Source: Escherichia phage vB_EcoM_E9.1 | Sequence record: PP886230 | Length of the DNA stretch: 64,000 nt | Direction: 5' to 3' (one strand) | Shown here: positions 423 to 34,081 of the stretch, one piece after another | Numbering within the stretch: the stretch's first letter is position 1 | How the letters are laid out: every line of letters starts with the position of its first letter | Notes under the pieces: generated by a model | What the model was told of the DNA's origin: nothing | The model's database searches: none | Seen by the model: only the letters and a program-made list of their open reading frames with translations | Made by a program: the position numbers and the translations under genes

Positions 423-734
423 ATGTTTAATCCGTTTTTTGACCCGTCTGGAATGACGGAAAAAGAACTACAGTTAAAAATTAATGAACAGTCAATGCGT
501 TTGACTTCTGCTCGTGCTGCTGGCCTAAGCGACATGATTATTGGTAATATGCAAACTGTCTTAAATCAATGTTATGCTGAACTAGAACTTCGCCAAGGAC
601 AAAAAGAAAAAACTGTTTATGACGAAGAAGACCCATGTATCTTCGATATGGATTCATATCTAACTGACAACGAAGAGGCCCAGAAGAAGAAAAATGAAAG
701 TACAAGGAAACAGATTTATAAGTCCCAATGGTGA
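423..734 (+). CDS. hypothetical protein
   Basis: Track ORF; strong RBS AGGAGG upstream of ATG (aggaggttaatATG). Confidence 0.6.
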   Translation: MFNPFFDPSGMTEKELQLKINEQSMRLTSARAAGLSDMIIGNMQTVLNQCYAELELRQGQKEKTVYDEEDPCIFDMDSYLTDNEEAQKKKNESTRKQIYKSQW

Positions 735-1212
735 TGTGAAATGTAATCTTAACGCAGTTGTTTATGCAATCAATTGCGGTGCAGATATCCAGTACTTACA
801 ATTGCAGGAAATTGATGAACCTGAAAGGTTGAAATTCAATGATAACTGTAAAAAATTTGGCTTAGAACAACGTATGCTGGATTATACAATTGAGCATGAT
901 AAAAATCATGAACTGTGGCGATATGATCCAGTATACGACAATATAAATCTGCGTGACTTTTTCTTACAAAAATGCACATCCGATGAAGCACGAAAACGTG
1001 TTGAGTATGAACTTGATTTATATGAATATTATAATATGACAAAGCTACTAAGATGTATGATATGGCTTGTTGATTATATGGAAGAAAATGAGATCTTTTG
1101 GGGTCTAGGTCGTGGAAGCTCTGTTGCATCATACTGTTTGTTTTTGATTGGACTACATATGGTAGATTCATTGAAGTACGAACTTGATGTTAACGAATTT
1201 TTGAAATGGTAG
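694..1212 (+). CDS. hypothetical protein (start uncertain)
   Basis: Track ORF overlapping upstream gene by 41 nt; true start may be internal. Confidence 0.4.
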   Translation: MKVQGNRFISPNGDVKCNLNAVVYAINCGADIQYLQLQEIDEPERLKFNDNCKKFGLEQRMLDYTIEHDKNHELWRYDPVYDNINLRDFFLQKCTSDEARKRVEYELDLYEYYNMTKLLRCMIWLVDYMEENEIFWGLGRGSSVASYCLFLIGLHMVDSLKYELDVNEFLKW

Positions 1213-7348: not shown

Positions 7349-8485
7349 ATGTCCGAGAAAGAAATCAATCCTAAAAAAGCATCCACCGCAGCTAAATCAG
7401 CAAAACGCACTACTAAAACTGCGTCTAAAGGTCATACAATTGATGCAAGTGATATTTTTAACCAAACTACAAAATCACTACCAGTACTGAAAGATGTTAA
7501 GGGAAATACTATGTCTCTAACAGTTCAAAACATCAATACTGTTGGTACAACTGCTGGTGCTGCTGTTGGGCGTTTGGCTGATGAAATTATGTCTAAAGTT
7601 AATGTAACGGATGACAATACCGAGTTTGGTAAATCAATCACCACAATTCTTACGTTGACTCGTGCAGTTGATATTGACAGTCTTCAAGAAGATAAATCAA
7701 TTGTTGGTCGTATTAAGAAATTCTTTGTTAATGCTCAACAGAAAGTAGGTGATCAGTACAAAAACAGTAAAGAGCAAATTGACGAAATTATGAAAACTCT
7801 TCAAACTGGTATTAATCGCCAGCACGGAGAATGTGAATGGCTTGATAAAGCATATAATGAAAACAAAGAATATTTGTTTGAATTACGTGATACATTAGTT
7901 GGTTTAGAAGAAGTAACTAAAACACAAGATGCATTATTATTAGAAATGCAAGCAGACAAAAATGTAGACTCTTTTGCTATTCAAGAGCAAAAGATGATTT
8001 GTGAAGCACTTTCTAAACAAGAAGATAAGATTCGTCGTCTTATCATGATGTGCGAGCTAAGTGGTCCACGTTTGATGAGTATGAAAAAAGTAAACTTGAA
8101 CACTGTTTCTAAGTTTGAAGATTTAAAATCTGTTGTTATTCCAGCATGGAAGTCTCAATTGGCTGAACAGTTAATTTCCGAGCGTCAACGTAAGGATAAT
8201 GAACTAGGCAATCTAATTGATAATGAGACAAACCGTCTTTTGGAAACTAACTCTAAAATGGTTGCAGCAAATATGTTGGACGCAGCAAAGGCAAACAACC
8301 GTGGTATTGTGGATATTAAAACCTTGCGTAATGTACATAAAACGATGATTGACAGTATTGAAGCAGTTATTGAAGAAGAGAAAAAAGGTAAATTGGAACG
8401 TGAACGTGCTAAACAGGAAATTGCACAACTTTCCTATGAACTGGAAGACACTCTTCGTGAAATTGCCGAAAAAGCTAACAAGTAA
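7349..8485 (+). CDS. hypothetical coiled-coil protein (possibly TelA-like, not verifiable here)
   Basis: Track ORF 378 aa; RBS GAGGAA; family assignment is a guess. Confidence 0.55.
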   Translation: MSEKEINPKKASTAAKSAKRTTKTASKGHTIDASDIFNQTTKSLPVLKDVKGNTMSLTVQNINTVGTTAGAAVGRLADEIMSKVNVTDDNTEFGKSITTILTLTRAVDIDSLQEDKSIVGRIKKFFVNAQQKVGDQYKNSKEQIDEIMKTLQTGINRQHGECEWLDKAYNENKEYLFELRDTLVGLEEVTKTQDALLLEMQADKNVDSFAIQEQKMICEALSKQEDKIRRLIMMCELSGPRLMSMKKVNLNTVSKFEDLKSVVIPAWKSQLAEQLISERQRKDNELGNLIDNETNRLLETNSKMVAANMLDAAKANNRGIVDIKTLRNVHKTMIDSIEAVIEEEKKGKLERERAKQEIAQLSYELEDTLREIAEKANK

Positions 8486-8488
8486 TAG

Positions 8489-8517
8489 TTGACATATGAG
8501 TGCGTTTTTAATATAAT
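8489..8517 (+). promoter_or_regulatory. sigma70-like promoter
   Basis: TTGACA-N17-TATAAT upstream of CDS 8565. Confidence 0.55.
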
Positions 8518-8540
8518 CTTATTGAAAACGCACTCTTTTT
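8498..8540 (+). terminator. hairpin + T-run nested in the promoter
   Basis: GAGTGCGTTTT...AAAACGCACTC 11-bp stem, loop carries the -10, followed by TTTTT. Confidence 0.5.
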
Positions 8541-8564
8541 AATGTACAGATAAGGAACTAACTT

Positions 8565-9254
8565 ATGAAACGTCGTCATATTAGTGTTGATATTGAAGCT
8601 CTTGGAACACCTGAACTTTCCGGTTATGATATTATTATCCCAAATTACGCAGCAGTAGTAGTTCCAAGTAAACCTGAAAATGACATTCGTCAGTTCTTAT
8701 ATATTAAATTACCATACCAGGATCAAGTTGCTGCTGGTTTAAAATCAGACGCAGGTGCAATGGATTTTTGGATGAATACATGTCAGAAAGAATACCCTAA
8801 TGCATATTCTGAAGTTGCCAGTACTATGAAACTCAAAGCACCTGAACTGTATGGACCGAATGGTCAATCACGACGATTTTTTGCATACAGTAGTATTGTT
8901 GATTTCTGGAAAGAATTACGTTACAATGATTATGGTGAAGAAGTTCCTCATTCAGTCTGGGGCAACGGATGTAACTTCGATTGTAGTATTTTACAAGCAA
9001 ACCATTTAAAACTAATGAACGCTGGTGAGTTGTGGAAGTATGATGCACCTGAAAATGCACGCACATTGAAACGTTTATTGAATGAAGAAGCTCGTATTGA
9101 AATGGATGAAATCGTTTCGGTACAGTTGGATAAATTTATCACATATGCAAATACGTGTGGGATTAATGGGTTGGAGTTACATCACCCACTGTTTGATGCA
9201 GCACGTGAAGCAATCCAGATTTCATTCTGTCTAAACAAGCTTAAAATGGATTAA
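8565..9254 (+). CDS. DEDDh 3'-5' exonuclease (DnaQ-like; DexA-like)
   Basis: Exo motifs: SVDIEALGT (D-x-E), WGNGCNFDCSIL, HHPLFDAAREA (H-x4-D). Confidence 0.65.
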   Translation: MKRRHISVDIEALGTPELSGYDIIIPNYAAVVVPSKPENDIRQFLYIKLPYQDQVAAGLKSDAGAMDFWMNTCQKEYPNAYSEVASTMKLKAPELYGPNGQSRRFFAYSSIVDFWKELRYNDYGEEVPHSVWGNGCNFDCSILQANHLKLMNAGELWKYDAPENARTLKRLLNEEARIEMDEIVSVQLDKFITYANTCGINGLELHHPLFDAAREAIQISFCLNKLKMD

Positions 9255-10912: not shown

Positions 10913-10937
10913 GGGAGTACTTTGTACTCCCCTTTTC
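10913..10937 (+). terminator. intrinsic terminator
   Basis: GGGAGTAC-TTT-GTACTCCC hairpin followed by CTTTTC. Confidence 0.7.
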
Positions 10938-12105: not shown

Positions 12106-12459
12106 ATGCTAATTTATTTGAGTGTTCTTGTTATTTCATTACTGGTATCATTAGCAGTACTGAAAGCTGTTGCCATCGGTCGTAGTAAAATTGACAGTAC
12201 TGAAACGAGTTCCGTTCTAGATTTGATTATGGATCATCCTAAAGTCTGTGGTATTATTGTATTGTTTGTTATTCTGATTAATACGTATATTGTCAGGGAT
12301 CATTTATATAATATGTATGATTGTAGTGTTAGATCTATATCACAAGGTGTTGAAACTGACTATAGCTGGTACTATGAGAAATGTAGATTTAAAAATCAGC
12401 ATGGTATTTGGGTTGATTTTGACAAACTACGTGGAACTCCTTCAGGAGAAGAAGAATAA
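12106..12459 (+). CDS. membrane protein
   Basis: Track ORF; two hydrophobic segments. Confidence 0.5.
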   Translation: MLIYLSVLVISLLVSLAVLKAVAIGRSKIDSTETSSVLDLIMDHPKVCGIIVLFVILINTYIVRDHLYNMYDCSVRSISQGVETDYSWYYEKCRFKNQHGIWVDFDKLRGTPSGEEE

Positions 12460-12461
12460 TT

Positions 12462-12953
12462 ATGTTTGAGTTCCCAGAAGAGTCATTTGACTTTATTGAC
12501 CCTACTGATGATGGATACCGACACATTAACATTTATAGTAAAGCTAGAACTAAGTTAGGTAGAGATCTATCTAACTTTTCTTCACATAGCTTCACACTTG
12601 AACCATATGGTTGGTTCCCTTCAGTTGAAACATTTTACTTTTGGTTTTTAACTGGGCAAAAACATGATGACCTTAGAAAAGTATCTGGTGCAGCAGCAAA
12701 AGCAGCCGCTAACAAATATATGCATGATCGAATTGAAATGACGGATGATTGTATTTCTATTATTCAAGATGCTATTTGTGCTAAGATAATTCAAAATCCA
12801 GAGTTAGCCGAAAGATTAAGAAAAAGCAAGTTACCTTTTTACCATTACTATGTATATGGTGGTAAAGTTGTAGATGTATCCGACGAACATGATTGGTTTG
12901 TTAAAACATTCGAATATATAAGAACGGTGTTAAAGGAAAACTATAATGGGTAA
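12462..12953 (+). CDS. hypothetical protein, possible NADAR-like domain
   Basis: LSNFSSHSF...FPSVETFYFW resembles NADAR/YbiA core (FSNF...PTVEHYYQA); tentative. Confidence 0.45.
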   Translation: MFEFPEESFDFIDPTDDGYRHINIYSKARTKLGRDLSNFSSHSFTLEPYGWFPSVETFYFWFLTGQKHDDLRKVSGAAAKAAANKYMHDRIEMTDDCISIIQDAICAKIIQNPELAERLRKSKLPFYHYYVYGGKVVDVSDEHDWFVKTFEYIRTVLKENYNG

Positions 12954-13224
12954 ATGTTGGGTATGCTTCAAGGTGTTTGATGAAGAATATGAAATAATAT
13001 TAGATGTATTGCCACAGCAGTACATGGTGTGTAATGAAAAATACAAATTGGACACCTACCCGACCCCCAAGTACATGGGAATATGTCCTTTGTGTGATGC
13101 AAATGGCGTGTCCAATAGTGAGATTTCATTCACTAACCAAGCCACAACTAACTGTGTATCTGGGTATATAAGAGAGAATCGAGAATATTTTATTAGGAGA
13201 TTATATGAACGACAAAATCTTTGA
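12946..13224 (+). CDS. small Cys-rich (zinc-ribbon-like) protein
   Basis: CWVC...CPLCD cysteine pairs. Confidence 0.45.
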   Translation: MGKCWVCFKVFDEEYEIILDVLPQQYMVCNEKYKLDTYPTPKYMGICPLCDANGVSNSEISFTNQATTNCVSGYIRENREYFIRRLYERQNL

Positions 13225-14972: not shown

Positions 14973-14981
14973 GTAAATACA

Positions 14982-15006
14982 AAAGCCTCCATTATGGAGG
15001 CTTTTA
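14982..15006 (+). terminator. intrinsic terminator
   Basis: GCCTCCA-TTA-TGGAGGC hairpin followed by TTTT. Confidence 0.65.
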
Positions 15007-15025
15007 TCACATAAGGAAATGAAAT

Positions 15026-18927: not shown

Positions 18928-19788
18928 ATGAAACCTATCCGAGTACTTTCTCTTTTTAATGGAATGAGTGTGGGATATATGGCATTGCAAGATGCTGGTA
19001 TCCCAGTTGAAAAATATTATTCATCCGAAATTGACAAGTACGCAATAGCTGAATCTCAAGCTAACTTTCCTGATATTATCCAATTGGGTGATGTAACTAA
19101 GTGGAGAGAATGGGATATTGAGTGGGATAAAATAGATTTATTAATGGGTGGTTTCCCATGTCAAGCCTGGTCAGTTGCAGGTAAACAGGGTGGTTTAAAT
19201 GATATACGTGGGCAGTTATTTTTAGTAATGGTTGAAATTTTTGATCATATCAAAAGTCTCAATCCTAACTTGAAATTTCTGTTTGAAAATGTTAAAATGA
19301 AGGAAGATTTCAAAGAATACATTAATAGTATTTTAGGAATCACGCCAGTACTGATAAACTCCCAGCATTATACGCCTCACTTCAGGCAGAGATATTACTG
19401 GTACAGTACTGATAAGCTTTTTATACCACCTGCATTATCCAATGCACCTAAACTTCAAGATATTATTGAAGATGGTTGGTACACTGACAGAACCGCTTCG
19501 TACTGTATAGATGCTAACTATTTTAAAGGTGGTGATTGTAACCAGTACTTTAATAAATCCAGACGACAATTGGTGTTTCGTGACCCAGTGATCAGTCGTC
19601 AATATCTATTAGAGAATGGCAAAAGAAATATTGACTATAGACACTTAAGTGTAGTAGAATGTTGTAAATTACAGGGTGTTCCTGAAGATTTCTTTAAAGT
19701 GTCTAGTAAGACACAAGCATACAAAATGCTTGGGAATGGATGGACTATGCCAGTTATATCACATTTACTAAGAGAGATATTCTTTTGA
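18928..19788 (+). CDS. DNA (cytosine-5)-methyltransferase
   Basis: Motif I LFNGMSVG, motif IV GGFPCQAWS (PCQ), motif VI ENV, motif VIII FRQRYYW, C-terminal GNGWTMP; RBS AAAGGA. Confidence 0.8.
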   Translation: MKPIRVLSLFNGMSVGYMALQDAGIPVEKYYSSEIDKYAIAESQANFPDIIQLGDVTKWREWDIEWDKIDLLMGGFPCQAWSVAGKQGGLNDIRGQLFLVMVEIFDHIKSLNPNLKFLFENVKMKEDFKEYINSILGITPVLINSQHYTPHFRQRYYWYSTDKLFIPPALSNAPKLQDIIEDGWYTDRTASYCIDANYFKGGDCNQYFNKSRRQLVFRDPVISRQYLLENGKRNIDYRHLSVVECCKLQGVPEDFFKVSSKTQAYKMLGNGWTMPVISHLLREIFF

Positions 19789-28994: not shown

Positions 28995-29330
<336 letters not shown>

Positions 29331-29331
29331 A

Positions 29332-29514
29332 ATGACACACGAAGAATGGATGTCCAAACAGCATAAAGAACATGACTGCTTTGGGAATGGCATTCGTCAG
29401 GTACATTATGATATATTAAGAGATGAAAATCTTTTCAGGTCATATGTTTTGGATACCAGAAAACCCTGGTTTATATGCGAACTGGCATTTAGAAAGTCAA
29501 ATAATCAAAACTAA
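29332..29514 (+). CDS. MTHEEWM-family small protein
   Basis: MTHEEWMSKQHKEHDCFGNGIRQVHYDILRDENLFRSYVLDTRKPWFICELAFRK...; ATG 29332 inside track ORF 29314..29514. Confidence 0.5.
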   Translation: MTHEEWMSKQHKEHDCFGNGIRQVHYDILRDENLFRSYVLDTRKPWFICELAFRKSNNQN

Positions 29515-29530
29515 ACAAGGAATACAAAAA

Positions 29531-29749
29531 ATGGAAACAACTTTATTTGAAGTTATTCAATCATTAAAACCTGAAGATGAGGTTCAAGTACTACTACATG
29601 GTTATCGTGTAAAAGGTACTGTGGTTTTAGTCAATGATACAACATTGGTTATTACAGAAACAAACCCATATGATAGTAATCAACTTGTCAATATCCATAT
29701 CGATATCACTGGAATTATTGGTGTCGGTGTATCTAAAACACTTGCATAA
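29531..29749 (+). CDS. hypothetical protein
   Basis: Internal ATG of track ORF 29423..29749 behind RBS AAGGAA. Confidence 0.45.
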   Translation: METTLFEVIQSLKPEDEVQVLLHGYRVKGTVVLVNDTTLVITETNPYDSNQLVNIHIDITGIIGVGVSKTLA

Positions 29750-29802
29750 ATCATTAATTCATTATATAATGATTATCACTGGTTCTAGATGAGGATAATA
29801 TT

Positions 29803-30075
29803 ATGCATTTTGAAAAATTCAACGTAAATCGTAACACACGCATTGAAGTTCTTTATGAAACTCAAGACACCATTAGTATTCGTACAAGTAGTGGGGATGT
29901 ATATCATGACTGTACGATTGGCTGGGAACAGGGAAGAACGCGTAGTGCAGTATTTGATAATTATCGCTTTTATCAAGGAGACACTACGATTTGGCCTGAA
30001 TACGTAGAAGATATTGCGTTTGAAGATGAACATAAAGATGAATTTATCAAATTTAATCCTCAAACTGAATCATAA
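29803..30075 (+). CDS. hypothetical protein
   Basis: Track ORF; RBS GAGGA. Confidence 0.5.
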   Translation: MHFEKFNVNRNTRIEVLYETQDTISIRTSSGDVYHDCTIGWEQGRTRSAVFDNYRFYQGDTTIWPEYVEDIAFEDEHKDEFIKFNPQTES

Positions 30076-30079
30076 ATAA

Positions 30080-30208
<129 letters not shown>

Positions 30209-30212
30209 AAAT

Positions 30213-30314
<102 letters not shown>

Positions 30315-30318
30315 AACC

Positions 30319-30479
30319 ATGACGCATGAAGAATGGATGAATGACATTAATTTTAGATATGCAGGTTTCGGTAACTGGAGAAAGTATCATTGGGAAATCA
30401 TGTCAGACCCAGCAGAATACGATAAACTTATAAACCATGAAGCGTATCCGTGGTTCTTTATTGAAATAATGGTACGAAC

Positions 30480-30483
<4 letters not shown>
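30319..30483 (+). CDS. MTHEEWM-family small protein (54 aa)
   Basis: Below track cutoff; MTHEEWMNDINFRYAGFGNWRKYHWEIMSDPAEYDKLINHEAYPWFFIEIMVRT. Confidence 0.5.
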
Positions 30484-30645
<162 letters not shown>

Positions 30646-30653
30646 AAAAAAAG

Positions 30654-31067
<414 letters not shown>

Positions 31068-31124
31068 CTAAATAATTCAGTACTGAGGATATTAATATGT
31101 TTAAAGATGAACGTCCAGATTTGT

Positions 31125-31162
<38 letters not shown>

Positions 31163-31168
31163 GAATTC

Positions 31169-31510
31169 CACAATCAGACGTATATGGTGTAAGTTACGTC
31201 GATGCAATCCAGAACAAGATCTCTGGTACTCTAGGAAGTGGTGAATGTTAACCTAGACGGGTTTGATAATTGGACGATAGGCAATTATTACTTGACTAGC
31301 AGGTTTAAACTAGAGGTGACTATCCTTCACCAAACTGGAAAACCGGATGGACTTTTATTTAAAAGGGTAAGGCGTGGAAATATGTTTACAGTAGTTGCTT
31401 TTAGTATCCTGTACGCCCCACGTCAAGGTAGCCGAAAGGCAAGTTAAAACGGGTGGTTATAAAGCTGAATTAACAGCGACGTTTAAAAGCGTCACCATCC
31501 ATTTTTTTTT
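31169..31510 (+). ncRNA. candidate structured RNA or leader
   Basis: ~340 nt GC-richer stretch between promoter 31134 and a 9-T run at 31502-31510; only a doubtful 69-aa ORF (31238..31447). Confidence 0.25.
31478..31510 (+). terminator. putative terminator (weak stem, long T-run)
   Basis: GACG-loop-CGTC then ACCATCCA + TTTTTTTTT. Confidence 0.4.
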
Positions 31511-31526
31511 AATTAAAGTTGGTGAT

Positions 31527-32164
<638 letters not shown>

Positions 32165-32165
32165 T

Positions 32166-32335
<170 letters not shown>

Positions 32336-32358
32336 CGAAATTACAATAGGAAATTAAA

Positions 32359-32544
32359 ATGCAACTTTTAATTCTTTCAATATTGTATATTATTATAATG
32401 GTTCCGATATCAATACGTTTAATTACAGTTGAACGATTTTTATCGAAACATGGAAATAGATCTATGATCTTTGTACCAATTGGGCTTATATTGTTTGGTA
32501 TTTTTGCATTTATAATGGGAATTAACGCTACATTCATTTCATAG
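32359..32544 (+). CDS. small membrane protein
   Basis: Track ORF; two hydrophobic helices; RBS TAGGAAA. Confidence 0.4.
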   Translation: MQLLILSILYIIIMVPISIRLITVERFLSKHGNRSMIFVPIGLILFGIFAFIMGINATFIS

Positions 32545-32553
32545 GAAACAAAT

Positions 32554-32811
<258 letters not shown>

Positions 32812-32814
32812 CTA

Positions 32815-33015
32815 ATGTCAAAATTTATTAACCGTAAGAAAAGAAAAAAACGTTCTAAAGAAGAAATTCTTCAGTTAATTAAACAAAACAAGAAAGAATT
32901 GATACTTGATGAATATGTTTTCCAATACGGAATGAAAAGTGGTTTAGTGAAAGAATGTAATAATAAGTACAGTACTGAGCATTTTGATCTTATTAAAAAT
33001 ATTCTTTTAAAATAA
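32815..33015 (+). CDS. small basic protein
   Basis: Track ORF; K/R-rich N-terminus. Confidence 0.45.
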   Translation: MSKFINRKKRKKRSKEEILQLIKQNKKELILDEYVFQYGMKSGLVKECNNKYSTEHFDLIKNILLK

Positions 33016-33183
33016 AAGTATTTTTTGGATTAATTATGAGATTAACACTTGAAGAAAAAGAAGCTATTCGAGTACTGGTACGGTAAAAAGAAATTGACAA
33101 AATATGTCATTTCACCTAAACTACGTGGTAAGACTTCACTTGGTGTATTCAACGCCGCAGACTTAAACTACTAGCGGGTATTA

Positions 33184-33525
<342 letters not shown>

Positions 33526-33550
33526 GGACGTAGGATGTAAGTATTCAGTT

Positions 33551-33734
<184 letters not shown>

Positions 33735-33736
33735 TA

Positions 33737-33793
<57 letters not shown>

Positions 33794-33794
33794 A

Positions 33795-33826
<32 letters not shown>

Positions 33827-33878
33827 TACCAAGCAGCTTGAAGAACTTTGTAGTGCTGCACCTATGCCGACTCTTGGC

Positions 33879-33979
<101 letters not shown>

Positions 33980-33991
33980 TATCTTACTTCT

Positions 33992-34081
<90 letters not shown>

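What the first reader, a model, noticed from the sequence alone, without database searches (positions are those of the whole stretch)
12462..12953. Possible NADAR-like hydrolase
The motifs LSNFSSHSF and FPSVETFYFW resemble the NADAR (YbiA-like) core. NADAR enzymes can reverse ADP-ribosylation of DNA, so a phage copy could counter ADP-ribosylating defence systems. Tentative.
Basis: inference. Interest (0 to 1): 0.4.

Follow-up and report, generated by a model that had tools for sequence, protein, structure and literature searches.

The report
Divergent phage NADAR (AdfN-like) hydrolase gene
This 163-residue gene of an E. coli jumbo phage is a real but very divergent member of the NADAR enzyme superfamily, closest to phage T4's AdfN, so it most likely strips ADP-ribose off nucleic-acid bases to defeat host defence; that makes it an expected kind of phage gene, currently labelled "hypothetical".

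Summary
ORF 12462..12953 (+) encodes 163 aa with both quoted motifs, and it is conserved in 505 phage genomes.

The NADAR reading is supported, but only by sensitive methods.
- Single-sequence Pfam, NCBIfam and PDB searches find nothing.
- A family profile hits only NADAR chains in the PDB (8BAU, E 1.5e-5; YbiA, E 9e-4).
- hhalign gives 97.7% (E 2.6e-12, full length) to the T4 gp30.3/AdfN family and 94.4% to YbiA.
- An AlphaFold model (pLDDT 89) matches only the three NADAR structures.

Glu56 (the ribose-binding Glu) is invariant. His128 sits where gp30.3-type "phage NADARs" carry their hallmark His. The phosphate-binding Lys seven residues after the Glu is absent (Leu63), and the D-x-x-W loop is replaced.

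The family is large: 2088 clusters at 50% identity. It is often fused to DUF4326, SLOG, Macro or DUF488 domains, the NAD+/ADP-ribose network already described for jumbo-phage NADARs.

The most likely function is an ADP-ribosyl N-glycohydrolase that counters DarT1-type DNA ADP-ribosylation. This is inferred, not shown. Hydrolysis of soluble ADP-ribose signals is the main rival.

Verdict: an unannotated, unusual clade of a known kind; moderate interest.

The parts
12462..12953 (+). CDS (163 aa plus stop) for a divergent His-type NADAR-fold protein
   Evidence: ORF. Family conservation. NADAR homology.
12444..12448 (+). AGGAG, a likely ribosome-binding site in a purine-rich stretch 13 nt upstream of the ATG
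   Evidence: Read directly from the sequence; inference only.
12522..12578 (+). N-terminal motif H21-I-N-I-Y-S-K ... G33-R-x-L-S-N-F39, the counterpart of YbiA I-N-F-Y-S...G-D-F-S-N-F
   Evidence: Column conservation (N23 and G33 86/86; S37, N38, F39 81-84/86). Alignment to YbiA and PnNADAR.
12627..12629 (+). Codon of Glu56, the predicted catalytic or distal-ribose-binding glutamate (= PnNADAR E43, T4 AdfN E36)
   Evidence: 86/86 invariant. Aligned to E36 of T4 gp30.3 and to the S-E-Q/H-Y-F Glu of 8BAU and YbiA. Roles of E43 and E36 are from PMC11543638 and PMC11825919.
12648..12650 (+). Codon of Leu63, the position where canonical NADARs and AdfN have the phosphate-binding Lys (PnNADAR K50, T4 K43); the Lys is missing here
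   Evidence: Alignment. Column composition L30/G16/S13/K7 of 86.
12843..12845 (+). Codon of His128 in the last-strand region, the counterpart of the hallmark His of gp30.3-type phage NADARs (E125 in YbiA-type, Asp in DarG1-type)
   Evidence: 85/86 conserved. Aligned to the invariant H123 of the gp30.3 family. The literature definition is in PMC11543638 and PMC11125620.
10913..10931 (+). Terminator-like hairpin marking the upstream end of the co-directional array of small ORFs that contains the gene
   Evidence: A terminator is also annotated at the equivalent place in phage G17.
14979..15007 (.). Hairpin with a terminator-like pattern downstream of the array, a possible end of the transcription unit
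   Evidence: where it was scored on the - strand (the stem is palindromic); inference only.

Best explanation
The gene encodes a stand-alone NADAR-fold (YbiA-fold) enzyme. It belongs to a large, so far unannotated phage clade that is sister to the T4 gp30.3/AdfN "phage NADAR" family.

By analogy with AdfN, DarG1 and PnNADAR, it most likely binds an ADP-ribosyl group attached through an N-glycosidic bond to a nucleobase. Glu56 and His128 would flank the distal ribose, and the enzyme would hydrolyse that bond and release ADP-ribose. During infection this would erase the guanine ADP-ribosylation that DarT1-type host toxins place on replicating phage DNA.

Shown here: gene reality, family conservation, NADAR homology and fold, and conservation of the Glu and His.

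Inferred: catalytic activity, the substrate (DNA guanine-ADP-ribose) and the anti-defence role. My confidence in NADAR superfamily membership is about 0.9. My confidence in the specific anti-DarT1 DNA de-ADP-ribosylation role is about 0.45.
For: - The family HMM against all PDB sequences hits only 8BAU (PnNADAR, E 1.2e-4, then 1.5e-5 with the larger alignment) and 2B3W (YbiA).
- hhalign gives 97.65% (E 2.6e-12, 141 columns) to the gp30.3/AdfN family and 94.4% (E 8.7e-8, 136 columns) to the YbiA family. The positive control, gp30.3 against YbiA, gives 97.8%.
- Its only convincing PDB matches are YbiA, PnNADAR and G. lovleyi NADAR (probability 0.99-1.0, TM 0.52-0.62); every other hit has E>1. 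Many NADAR-annotated viral proteins appear in BFVD.
- E56 is 86/86 and H128 is 85/86. They align with AdfN E36 and H123.
- T4 AdfN, AdfN-Bas32 and AdfN-Bas60 remove guanine ADP-ribose and defeat DarTG1 (PMC11825919). NADAR guanine-ADPr hydrolysis and the roles of E43, K50 and E125 are in PMC11543638. The His as the gp30.3-type hallmark is in PMC11125620.
- Fusion partners in 84 long family members are DUF4326 (25), YAcAr SLOG (18), DprA-like SLOG (10), Macro (6) and DUF488-N3a (6). This is the NAD+/ADPr network described for jumbo-phage NADARs (PMC7824862, PMC9503650).
- In Erwinia phage Ea35-70 the homologue lies immediately downstream of a Macro-domain gene.
Against: - There is no direct Pfam NADAR or Phage_30_3 hit for this protein. 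Only 5 and 6 of 28 relatives give weak, sub-threshold hits.
- The phosphate-binding Lys is not conserved in the family and is Leu63 here. That Lys is essential for efficient hydrolysis in E. coli C7 NADAR (K95, equivalent to PnNADAR K50), and its mutation in AdfN (K43A) impairs rescue.
- The counterpart of R79 is Asn84 in this phage's clade. W89, R93 and the D130-x-x-W133 loop have no conserved counterparts.
- The window holds no DarT, ART, Macro, SLOG or Nudix gene, and gene neighbourhoods differ between phages.
- Frequent fusion to SLOG and DUF4326 fits processing of small ADP-ribose derivatives at least as well as DNA repair.
- No experiment exists on any member of this clade, as far as my searches show.
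Confidence: 0.5

Rival explanations
1. It is a NADAR-fold N-glycosidase that acts on soluble NAD+/ADP-ribose-derived molecules rather than on DNA. Candidates are cyclic ADP-ribose isomers or other TIR/SIR2/ART-generated immune signals or toxins, or by-products of RNA repair. It would blunt host signalling-based immunity.
For: [quoted passage not shown]
- This clade is the one that carries those fusions: DUF4326 in 25, YAcAr or DprA-like SLOG in 28, and Macro in 6 of 84 long members.
- The remodelled phosphate-binding site (no Lys at E+7) is compatible with a different ligand.
Against: - Every NADAR tested biochemically so far, including the nearest relative T4 gp30.3, hydrolyses base-linked ADP-ribose on nucleic acids (PMC11543638, PMC11125620, PMC11825919, PMC12945103).
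- No soluble-signal substrate has been demonstrated for any NADAR in the papers read.
- The protein in this window is stand-alone, with no partner domains nearby.
Confidence: 0.25
2. It removes ADP-ribose from a different nucleic-acid target than DarT1-modified guanine. Possible targets are cytidine- or adenine-linked ADP-ribose, or ADP-ribosylated RNA. Alternatively it is an N-glycosidase of nucleotide metabolism, like YbiA acting on riboflavin intermediates.
For: - NADARs also reverse cytidine ADP-ribosylation (PMC12945103).
- YbiA is an N-glycosidase for riboflavin intermediates (cited in PMC11125620 and PMC9503650).
- In several phages the gene sits among nucleotide-metabolism genes: MazG in CBA120, anaerobic RNR and dCMP deaminase in a Vibrio phage, dUTPase in Yaphecito.
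- The active-site periphery differs from characterised enzymes.
Against: - The gene neighbourhoods are not conserved, so the nucleotide-metabolism context may just reflect early or middle gene regions.
- There is no specific evidence for any of these substrates.
- The closest relative by profile is the guanine-ADPr-specific AdfN family.
Confidence: 0.15
3. It is a catalytically dead NADAR fold that acts by binding, for example by sequestering ADP-ribose-containing ligands or a host toxin, or it has no NADAR-related role at all.
For: The canonical Lys and several ADPr-contacting residues are lost. The Pfam NADAR model does not detect the protein.
Against: - Glu56, His128, Asn23, Lys80, Tyr129/130 and Trp145 are near-invariant across sequences only 30-40% identical, the pattern expected of a maintained active site.
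- Fold and profile evidence for NADAR is concordant.
- T4 AdfN did not bind DarT1 in two-hybrid assays (PMC11825919).
Confidence: 0.07

Closest known systems
T4 gp30.3 = AdfN (anti-DarT factor NADAR; Pfam PF08010 Phage_30_3), the His-type "phage NADAR" family
   Same: - Both are small stand-alone phage proteins (152 vs 163 aa).
- The two families align by profile over the full length at 97.65%, E 2.6e-12.
- They share the L-S-N-F motif, the catalytic Glu (E36/E56), the A-K-x-x-G motif, a His in the last strand (H123/H128) and an Arg in the C-terminal helix (R149/R154).
- Both lack the canonical D-x-x-W-G loop.
   Different: - The window protein does not reach the PF08010 threshold. It gives no hit, and the best relative scores E 4.4e-6, below the 36-bit cut-off.
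- AdfN K43 is replaced by Leu63 and the position is not conserved in the family.
- This family has its own invariant N-terminal D-G-x-x-H-I-N-I-Y-S-K motif, a W-Y-W helix and an H-Y-Y-V-Y-G-G-K hairpin.
- It is frequently fused to DUF4326, SLOG, Macro or DUF488, whereas the gp30.3 relatives recovered were nearly all about 150 aa single-domain proteins.
- The host range of carriers differs: jumbo phages, Ackermannviridae and Vibrio phages rather than T4-like phages.
YbiA / PnNADAR-type canonical NADAR (Pfam PF08719; PDB 2B3W, 8BAU)
   Same: - Same fold: Foldseek probability 1.0, TM 0.54-0.62.
- Profile-profile match of 94.4%.
- The F-S-N-F and S-x-E motifs, the conserved Lys/Arg at K75/R76, the helix Lys (K104/K108) and the C-terminal helix Arg are all present.
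   Different: - His replaces E125.
- K50, W89, R93, D130 and W133 are not conserved.
- Sequence identity is only 16-18%.
- There is no Pfam hit.
DarG1 antitoxin NADAR (BC4488 family; PDB 8BAT G. lovleyi)
   Same: Same fold: third-best PDB match, probability 0.99. The activity I propose here is the one demonstrated for DarG1, hydrolysis of DarT1-made guanine-ADP-ribose (PMC11543638).
   Different: - DarG1 has an Asp in the last strand and is encoded next to DarT1.
- This protein has a His, is an orphan, and no DarT-like gene was detected in the window.
- DarG1 proteins are longer, about 230 aa, with extensions.

Membership tests
NADAR superfamily (YbiA fold) | Match to the curated Pfam NADAR model PF08719 at the gathering threshold | tested here: not met
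   No Pfam family at E<=10 for the window protein. Only 5 of 28 relatives give weak hits, best E 0.024.
NADAR superfamily (YbiA fold) | Statistically supported remote homology to bona fide NADARs (profile-sequence and profile-profile) | tested here: met
   The family HMM against the PDB hits only 8BAU (E 1.5e-5) and 2B3W (E 9.2e-4) as significant matches. hhalign to the YbiA family gives 94.4%, E 8.7e-8, 136 columns.
NADAR superfamily (YbiA fold) | [quoted passage not shown] | tested here: met
   The AF2 model (pLDDT 89) has helices 55-63, 69-73, 76-84, 95-110 and 113-121, flanked by strands 21-23/44-46/50-52 and 129-132/135-138. The Foldseek top three hits are 2B3W, 8BAU and 8BAT; all others have E>1.
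NADAR superfamily (YbiA fold) | Conserved Glu that coordinates the distal ribose (PnNADAR E43, E. coli C7 E88, AdfN E36) | tested here: met
   E56 is invariant in 86/86 sequences and aligns to that Glu.
NADAR superfamily (YbiA fold) | Conserved phosphate-binding Lys seven residues after the Glu (PnNADAR K50, C7 K95, AdfN K43) | tested here: not met
   The aligned position is Leu63. The family column is L30/G16/S13/K7 of 86.
NADAR superfamily (YbiA fold) | Charged or polar catalytic residue in the last strand (Glu in YbiA type, Asp in BC4488/DarG1 type, His in gp30.3 type) | tested here: met
   H128 is 85/86 and aligns with the invariant H123 of the gp30.3 family. The alignment to YbiA in this segment is ambiguous by a few residues.
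NADAR superfamily (YbiA fold) | ADP-ribosyl (N-glycosidic) hydrolase activity | not testable with these tools
   This needs an enzyme assay. None was found in the literature for this clade.
gp30.3 / AdfN family (Pfam PF08010) | Match to PF08010 at the gathering threshold (36 bits) | tested here: not met
   No hit for the window protein. Relatives score at best E 4.4e-6; the one relative whose score was shown, P0029, has 20.4 bits. T4 gp30.3 itself scores 237 bits.
gp30.3 / AdfN family (Pfam PF08010) | Full-length profile-profile similarity and the hallmark last-strand His | tested here: met
   hhalign gives 97.65%, E 2.6e-12, 141 columns, with H128 aligned to H123. This supports a sister-clade relationship, not membership in PF08010 itself.
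gp30.3 / AdfN family (Pfam PF08010) | Counter-defence against DarTG1 during infection | not testable with these tools
   Shown for T4 AdfN, AdfN-Bas32 and AdfN-Bas60 only (PMC11825919).
DarTG1 toxin-antitoxin (DarG1 NADAR) | Adjacent DarT1 ADP-ribosyltransferase gene and an Asp-type last strand | tested here: not met
   No ART or DarT domain was detected among about 88 window ORFs scanned with Pfam. The last-strand residue is His.

The most novel reading that the evidence does not exclude
This is not simply another AdfN. It would represent a distinct, very large NADAR clade (about 2000 clusters at 50% identity, in jumbo phages, Ackermannviridae and Vibrio phages) whose ADP-ribose-phosphate binding site has been rebuilt. 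The canonical Lys and the D-x-x-W loop are lost, and new invariant D-G-x-x-H-I-N-I-Y-S-K and H-Y-Y-x-Y-G-G-K elements are gained. It would act on a substrate different from guanine-ADP-ribosylated DNA, for example a soluble ADP-ribose-derived immune signal or another base-ADPr adduct, working together with the DUF4326, SLOG and Macro domains to which it is so often fused.
Probability: 0.3. Interest if true: 0.6.

Novelty: new member of a known kind. Interest (0 to 1): 0.4.

Why it matters
NADAR enzymes are a recently characterised class of ADP-ribosyl hydrolases that reverse base ADP-ribosylation of DNA. Phage copies (AdfN) were shown in 2025 to defeat the DarTG1 defence system.

The protein here is annotated as hypothetical in essentially every one of about 500 phage genomes that carry it, and current Pfam and NCBIfam models miss it. 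Recognising it as NADAR-fold gives a testable function to a widespread gene of therapeutic-candidate phages (Kuttervirus, Asteriusvirus, Erwinia and Vibrio phages).

It would also extend the known reach of anti-ADP-ribosylation counter-defence. Because the clade lacks the canonical phosphate-binding Lys yet keeps the Glu and His, it is a natural experiment on which residues NADAR catalysis really needs, and a candidate for a new substrate specificity.

Tried and rejected
- **Single-sequence searches found nothing:** Pfam at E<=10, phmmer against PDB sequences and NCBIfam. PHROGs gave only families of unknown function.
- **Local ADP-ribose context in the window:** Pfam scans of about 88 ORFs found TelA, an Rv2179c-like exoribonuclease, a C5 DNA methylase, replication proteins, a sigma factor, GroES and NT5C. 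They found no ART, DarT, Macro, SLOG, Nudix or NAD-salvage gene.
- **Paralogues:** no second copy of the family or of gp30.3 is in the window.
- **Gene neighbourhoods elsewhere:** in CBA120, a Vibrio phage, Serratia phage Yaphecito and Burkholderia phage FLC9 they are not conserved. Only Erwinia phage Ea35-70 shows a Macro neighbour.
- **Prior listing of this protein:** I tried to find out whether the Aravind-lab surveys or the AdfN paper list this exact protein. No supplementary files are held, and the RefSeq accession YP_009150746 appears in no paper.
- **Relation to AdfN-Bas60:** I tested whether the experimentally characterised AdfN-Bas60 (Vequintavirinae) belongs to this clade by scanning the whole rV5 genome with the three family profiles. 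There was no hit with any profile, so this detour was inconclusive.
- **Promoter scan:** no more promoter-like sites than in shuffled sequence.
- **Chance motif resemblance:** rejected because of the concordant profile and fold evidence.
- **Three-dimensional position of K27, R34 and K135:** I could not inspect where these residues sit relative to the active site, because model coordinates are not exposed.

Full report
**1. Observation**

The window carries an ATG-initiated ORF at 12462..12953 on the + strand, 163 aa. The quoted peptides are present: LSNFSSHSF at residues 36-44 and FPSVETFYFW at residues 52-61.

The ORF starts 2 nt after the stop of the preceding 117-aa ORF, and the next ORF overlaps it by 8 nt. 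A purine-rich AGGAG lies 13 nt upstream. The ORF sits in a long co-directional run of small ORFs. This run lies between a terminator-like hairpin at 10913-10931 and another at about 14979-15007.

The window is 99-100% identical to Asteriusvirus jumbo phages of E. coli and Salmonella (PBECO4, G17, slurp01, SD-2_S15 and others). In these records the gene is annotated as a hypothetical protein.

**2. It is a real, widespread gene family**

- tblastn finds it in 505 phage records. These include Asteriusvirus; many Salmonella, Escherichia, Klebsiella and Dickeya phages of about 150-160 kb, of which CBA120 was confirmed as Kuttervirus/Ackermannviridae; Erwinia, Serratia, Ralstonia and Burkholderia jumbo phages; and Vibrio phages.
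- It matches PHROG 652 (E 5.9e-45) and PHROG 11222, both of unknown function.
- A profile of 28 relatives finds 2088 clusters at 50% identity at E<=1e-3, and 641 at E<=1e-30.
- Near-invariant residues across 86 sequences only 30-40% identical are D17, G18, H21, N23, Y25, S26, G33, L36-S-N-F39, G50, F52, E56, G76, K80, K108, L124, P125, H128-Y-Y130 and W145.

**3. Is it NADAR?**

Direct tests fail. There is no Pfam hit at E<=10, no NCBIfam hit and no phmmer hit to PDB sequences. Among relatives, only weak sub-threshold hits appear: PF08010 Phage_30_3 in 6 of 28 (best E 0.0042) and PF08719 NADAR in 5 of 28 (best E 0.024).

Sensitive tests agree with one another:

- The family HMM searched against all 177,635 distinct PDB sequences returns only NADAR proteins as significant hits. 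These are 8BAU, P. nicotianae NADAR (E 1.2e-4, improving to 1.5e-5 with the 86-sequence profile), and 2B3W, E. coli YbiA (E 5e-4 and 9e-4).
- hhalign of the 86-sequence family alignment gives four results:
  - 93.5% to the single YbiA sequence;
  - 94.4% (E 8.7e-8, 136 columns) to a YbiA-family alignment;
  - 91% to the single T4 gp30.3 sequence;
  - 97.65% (E 2.6e-12, 141 columns, essentially full length) to a 51-sequence gp30.3 alignment.
- As a yardstick, gp30.3 against YbiA, two accepted NADAR subfamilies, gives 97.8%, E 1e-12.
- The AlphaFold2 model built from the family alignment is confident (pLDDT 89, pTM 0.82). [quoted passage not shown]
- Foldseek against the PDB ranks YbiA, PnNADAR and G. 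lovleyi NADAR first to third (probability 0.99-1.0, TM 0.52-0.62). Everything else has E>1.
- Against BFVD, after its own family, the model hits dozens of proteins named "NADAR domain" from giant viruses and phages.

I therefore accept NADAR-superfamily membership with about 0.9 confidence. The family is a sister clade of gp30.3/AdfN, not a member of Pfam PF08010 or PF08719 as those models are currently drawn.

**4. Active-site anatomy**

The residue roles below come from the PnNADAR-ADPr structure and mutagenesis (PMC11543638) and from AdfN mutagenesis (PMC11825919).

| Reference residue | Counterpart in this protein | Conservation or status |
|---|---|---|
| PnNADAR E43 / AdfN E36 (distal ribose) | Glu56 | invariant, 86/86 |
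| Last-strand residue: Glu in YbiA type, Asp in DarG1 type, His in gp30.3 "phage NADARs" (PMC11543638, PMC11125620) | His128, aligned to gp30.3 H123 | 85/86 |
| PnNADAR K75 / E. coli C7 K115 | Lys80 | 85/86 |
| C-terminal helix Arg | Arg154 | conserved |
| Phosphate-binding Lys at Glu+7 (K50 / K95 / AdfN K43) | Leu63 | absent; family column L30/G16/S13/K7 |
| R79 | Asn84 in this clade | R or K in 62 of 86 relatives |
| W89, R93 and the D130-x-x-W133 loop | an H-Y-Y-V-Y-G-G-K hairpin replaces the loop | no conserved counterpart |

Family-specific basic residues K27, R34 and K135 (K or R in 69-78 of 86 sequences) are candidates to take over phosphate binding. This is inference, because I could not inspect the model coordinates.

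**5. Context**

The window itself offers no ADP-ribose context. Pfam scans of about 88 ORFs show no ART, DarT, Macro, SLOG or Nudix gene, and there is no paralogue. Neighbourhoods in other phages vary, often with nucleotide-metabolism genes.

The family's domain fusions are informative. Of the 150 best representatives, 84 are 200 aa or longer. Among those 84, the partners are DUF4326 (25), YAcAr SLOG (18), DprA-like SLOG (10), Macro (6), DUF488-N3a (6) and a canonical NADAR domain (1).

This is the network that Iyer, Burroughs, Aravind and colleagues reported for NADAR domains of jumbo phages and giant viruses (PMC7824862, PMC9503650). So this clade was very probably already counted as NADAR in their surveys, although I could not verify the accession.

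In Erwinia phage Ea35-70 the homologue, fused to a weak sub-threshold YAcAr-like SLOG match (E 1.4e-4), directly follows a Macro-domain gene. A macrodomain protein of other nucleus-forming jumbo phages (Asesino, PhiKZ, PhiPA3) was recently shown to be the anti-DarTG2 factor AdfM (PMC13309987). I did not test whether the Ea35-70 Macro gene is its orthologue.

**6. Mechanism**

The best-supported explanation is an ADP-ribosyl N-glycohydrolase. Glu56 and His128 would flank the distal ribose, and the enzyme would cleave the bond between ADP-ribose C1'' and a nucleobase nitrogen.

The nearest characterised relatives (T4 AdfN, DarG1, PnNADAR, YbiA) all hydrolyse guanine-ADP-ribose on DNA. Three unrelated phage NADARs neutralise DarTG1 (PMC11825919, PMC11125620). 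The most likely role is therefore counter-defence against DarT1-type DNA ADP-ribosylation in E. coli and Salmonella hosts.

Rivals, in order of weight:
- hydrolysis of soluble ADP-ribose-derived signals, which the SLOG and DUF4326 fusions and the rebuilt phosphate site favour;
- another base-ADPr or RNA-ADPr adduct (cytidine-ADPr reversal by NADARs is reported in PMC12945103), or a nucleotide-metabolic N-glycosidase;
- a non-catalytic binder.

No experiment on this clade was found.

**7. Novelty and verdict**

Phage NADARs, their abundance in jumbo phages and their anti-DarT role are all published. This is therefore a new, currently unannotated and unusually divergent member clade of a known kind, not a new kind of system.

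What is mildly surprising is the loss of the "essential" Lys in a family that otherwise shows a strongly maintained active site, together with the family's size.

- Interest: 0.4.
- Most novel reading not excluded: a distinct substrate specificity, probability about 0.3, interest 0.6 if true.

Noticed in passing
L001 4001-4491 (phage vB_EcoM_G17, MK327931): In the G17 record the orthologous gene is annotated as two separate ORFs, G17_00233 and G17_00232. tblastn needs two pieces to cover the query at 99.4% identity. This points to a frameshift in that record, either a sequencing error or a pseudogene, so the gene may be dispensable in that isolate.
   Followed up: no
L003 2498-3855 (Erwinia phage Ea35-70, NC_023557): A Macro-domain gene (Ea357_151; Pfam Macro E 1e-9) lies directly upstream of the 293-aa homologue. 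That homologue combines the NADAR-like domain with a C-terminal region that gives a weak, sub-threshold YAcAr SLOG match (E 1.4e-4). A macrodomain protein of other nucleus-forming phages was recently named AdfM, an anti-DarTG2 factor. The pair could be a combined module against thymine- and guanine-ADP-ribosylation.
   Followed up: partly
Proteins P0024 and the A2 set (metagenomic relatives): The NADAR-like domain is fused in many relatives to DUF4326 (25 of 84), DUF488-N3a (6 of 84), SLOG or Macro domains, and once to a canonical Pfam NADAR domain in tandem. These multi-domain architectures are uncharacterised.
   Followed up: partly
window 29017-34071: A cluster of six tRNA genes on the + strand (Gly-tcc, Ser-tga, Ser-gct, Met-cat, Asn-gtt, Thr-tgt), interspersed with small ORFs.
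   Followed up: no
window 694-1212: A 172-aa ORF matches only positions 16-95 of the 260-position Pfam model for the DNA polymerase III alpha NTPase domain (E 1.9e-9). This suggests a split or fragmented PolIII-alpha-like gene in this phage.
   Followed up: no
window 7349-9254 and 18928-19788: A TelA-like protein (E 2.2e-37) and an Rv2179c-like 3'-5' exoribonuclease (E 1.1e-8) lie upstream of the finding. A C5 cytosine DNA methyltransferase (E 4.1e-38) lies downstream.
   Followed up: no
window 12106-12459 and 12946-13224: The immediate neighbours, apparently translationally coupled, are a 117-aa protein with a hydrophobic N-terminal segment (MLIYLSVLVISLLVSLAVLKAV) and a 92-aa protein with CxxC...CxxC spacing (CWVC...CPLC), possibly a zinc ribbon. 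Neither has a Pfam hit.
   Followed up: no
window, elsewhere (ORFs of 100 aa or more scanned as set A5): The window also encodes a sigma-70-like factor (regions 2, 3 and 4), a GroES-like Cpn10, a clamp-loader-like AAA+ protein, an NT5C 5'-nucleotidase and a HAD hydrolase. Which ORF carries each hit was not resolved, because the batch scan reports only counts per family.
   Followed up: no
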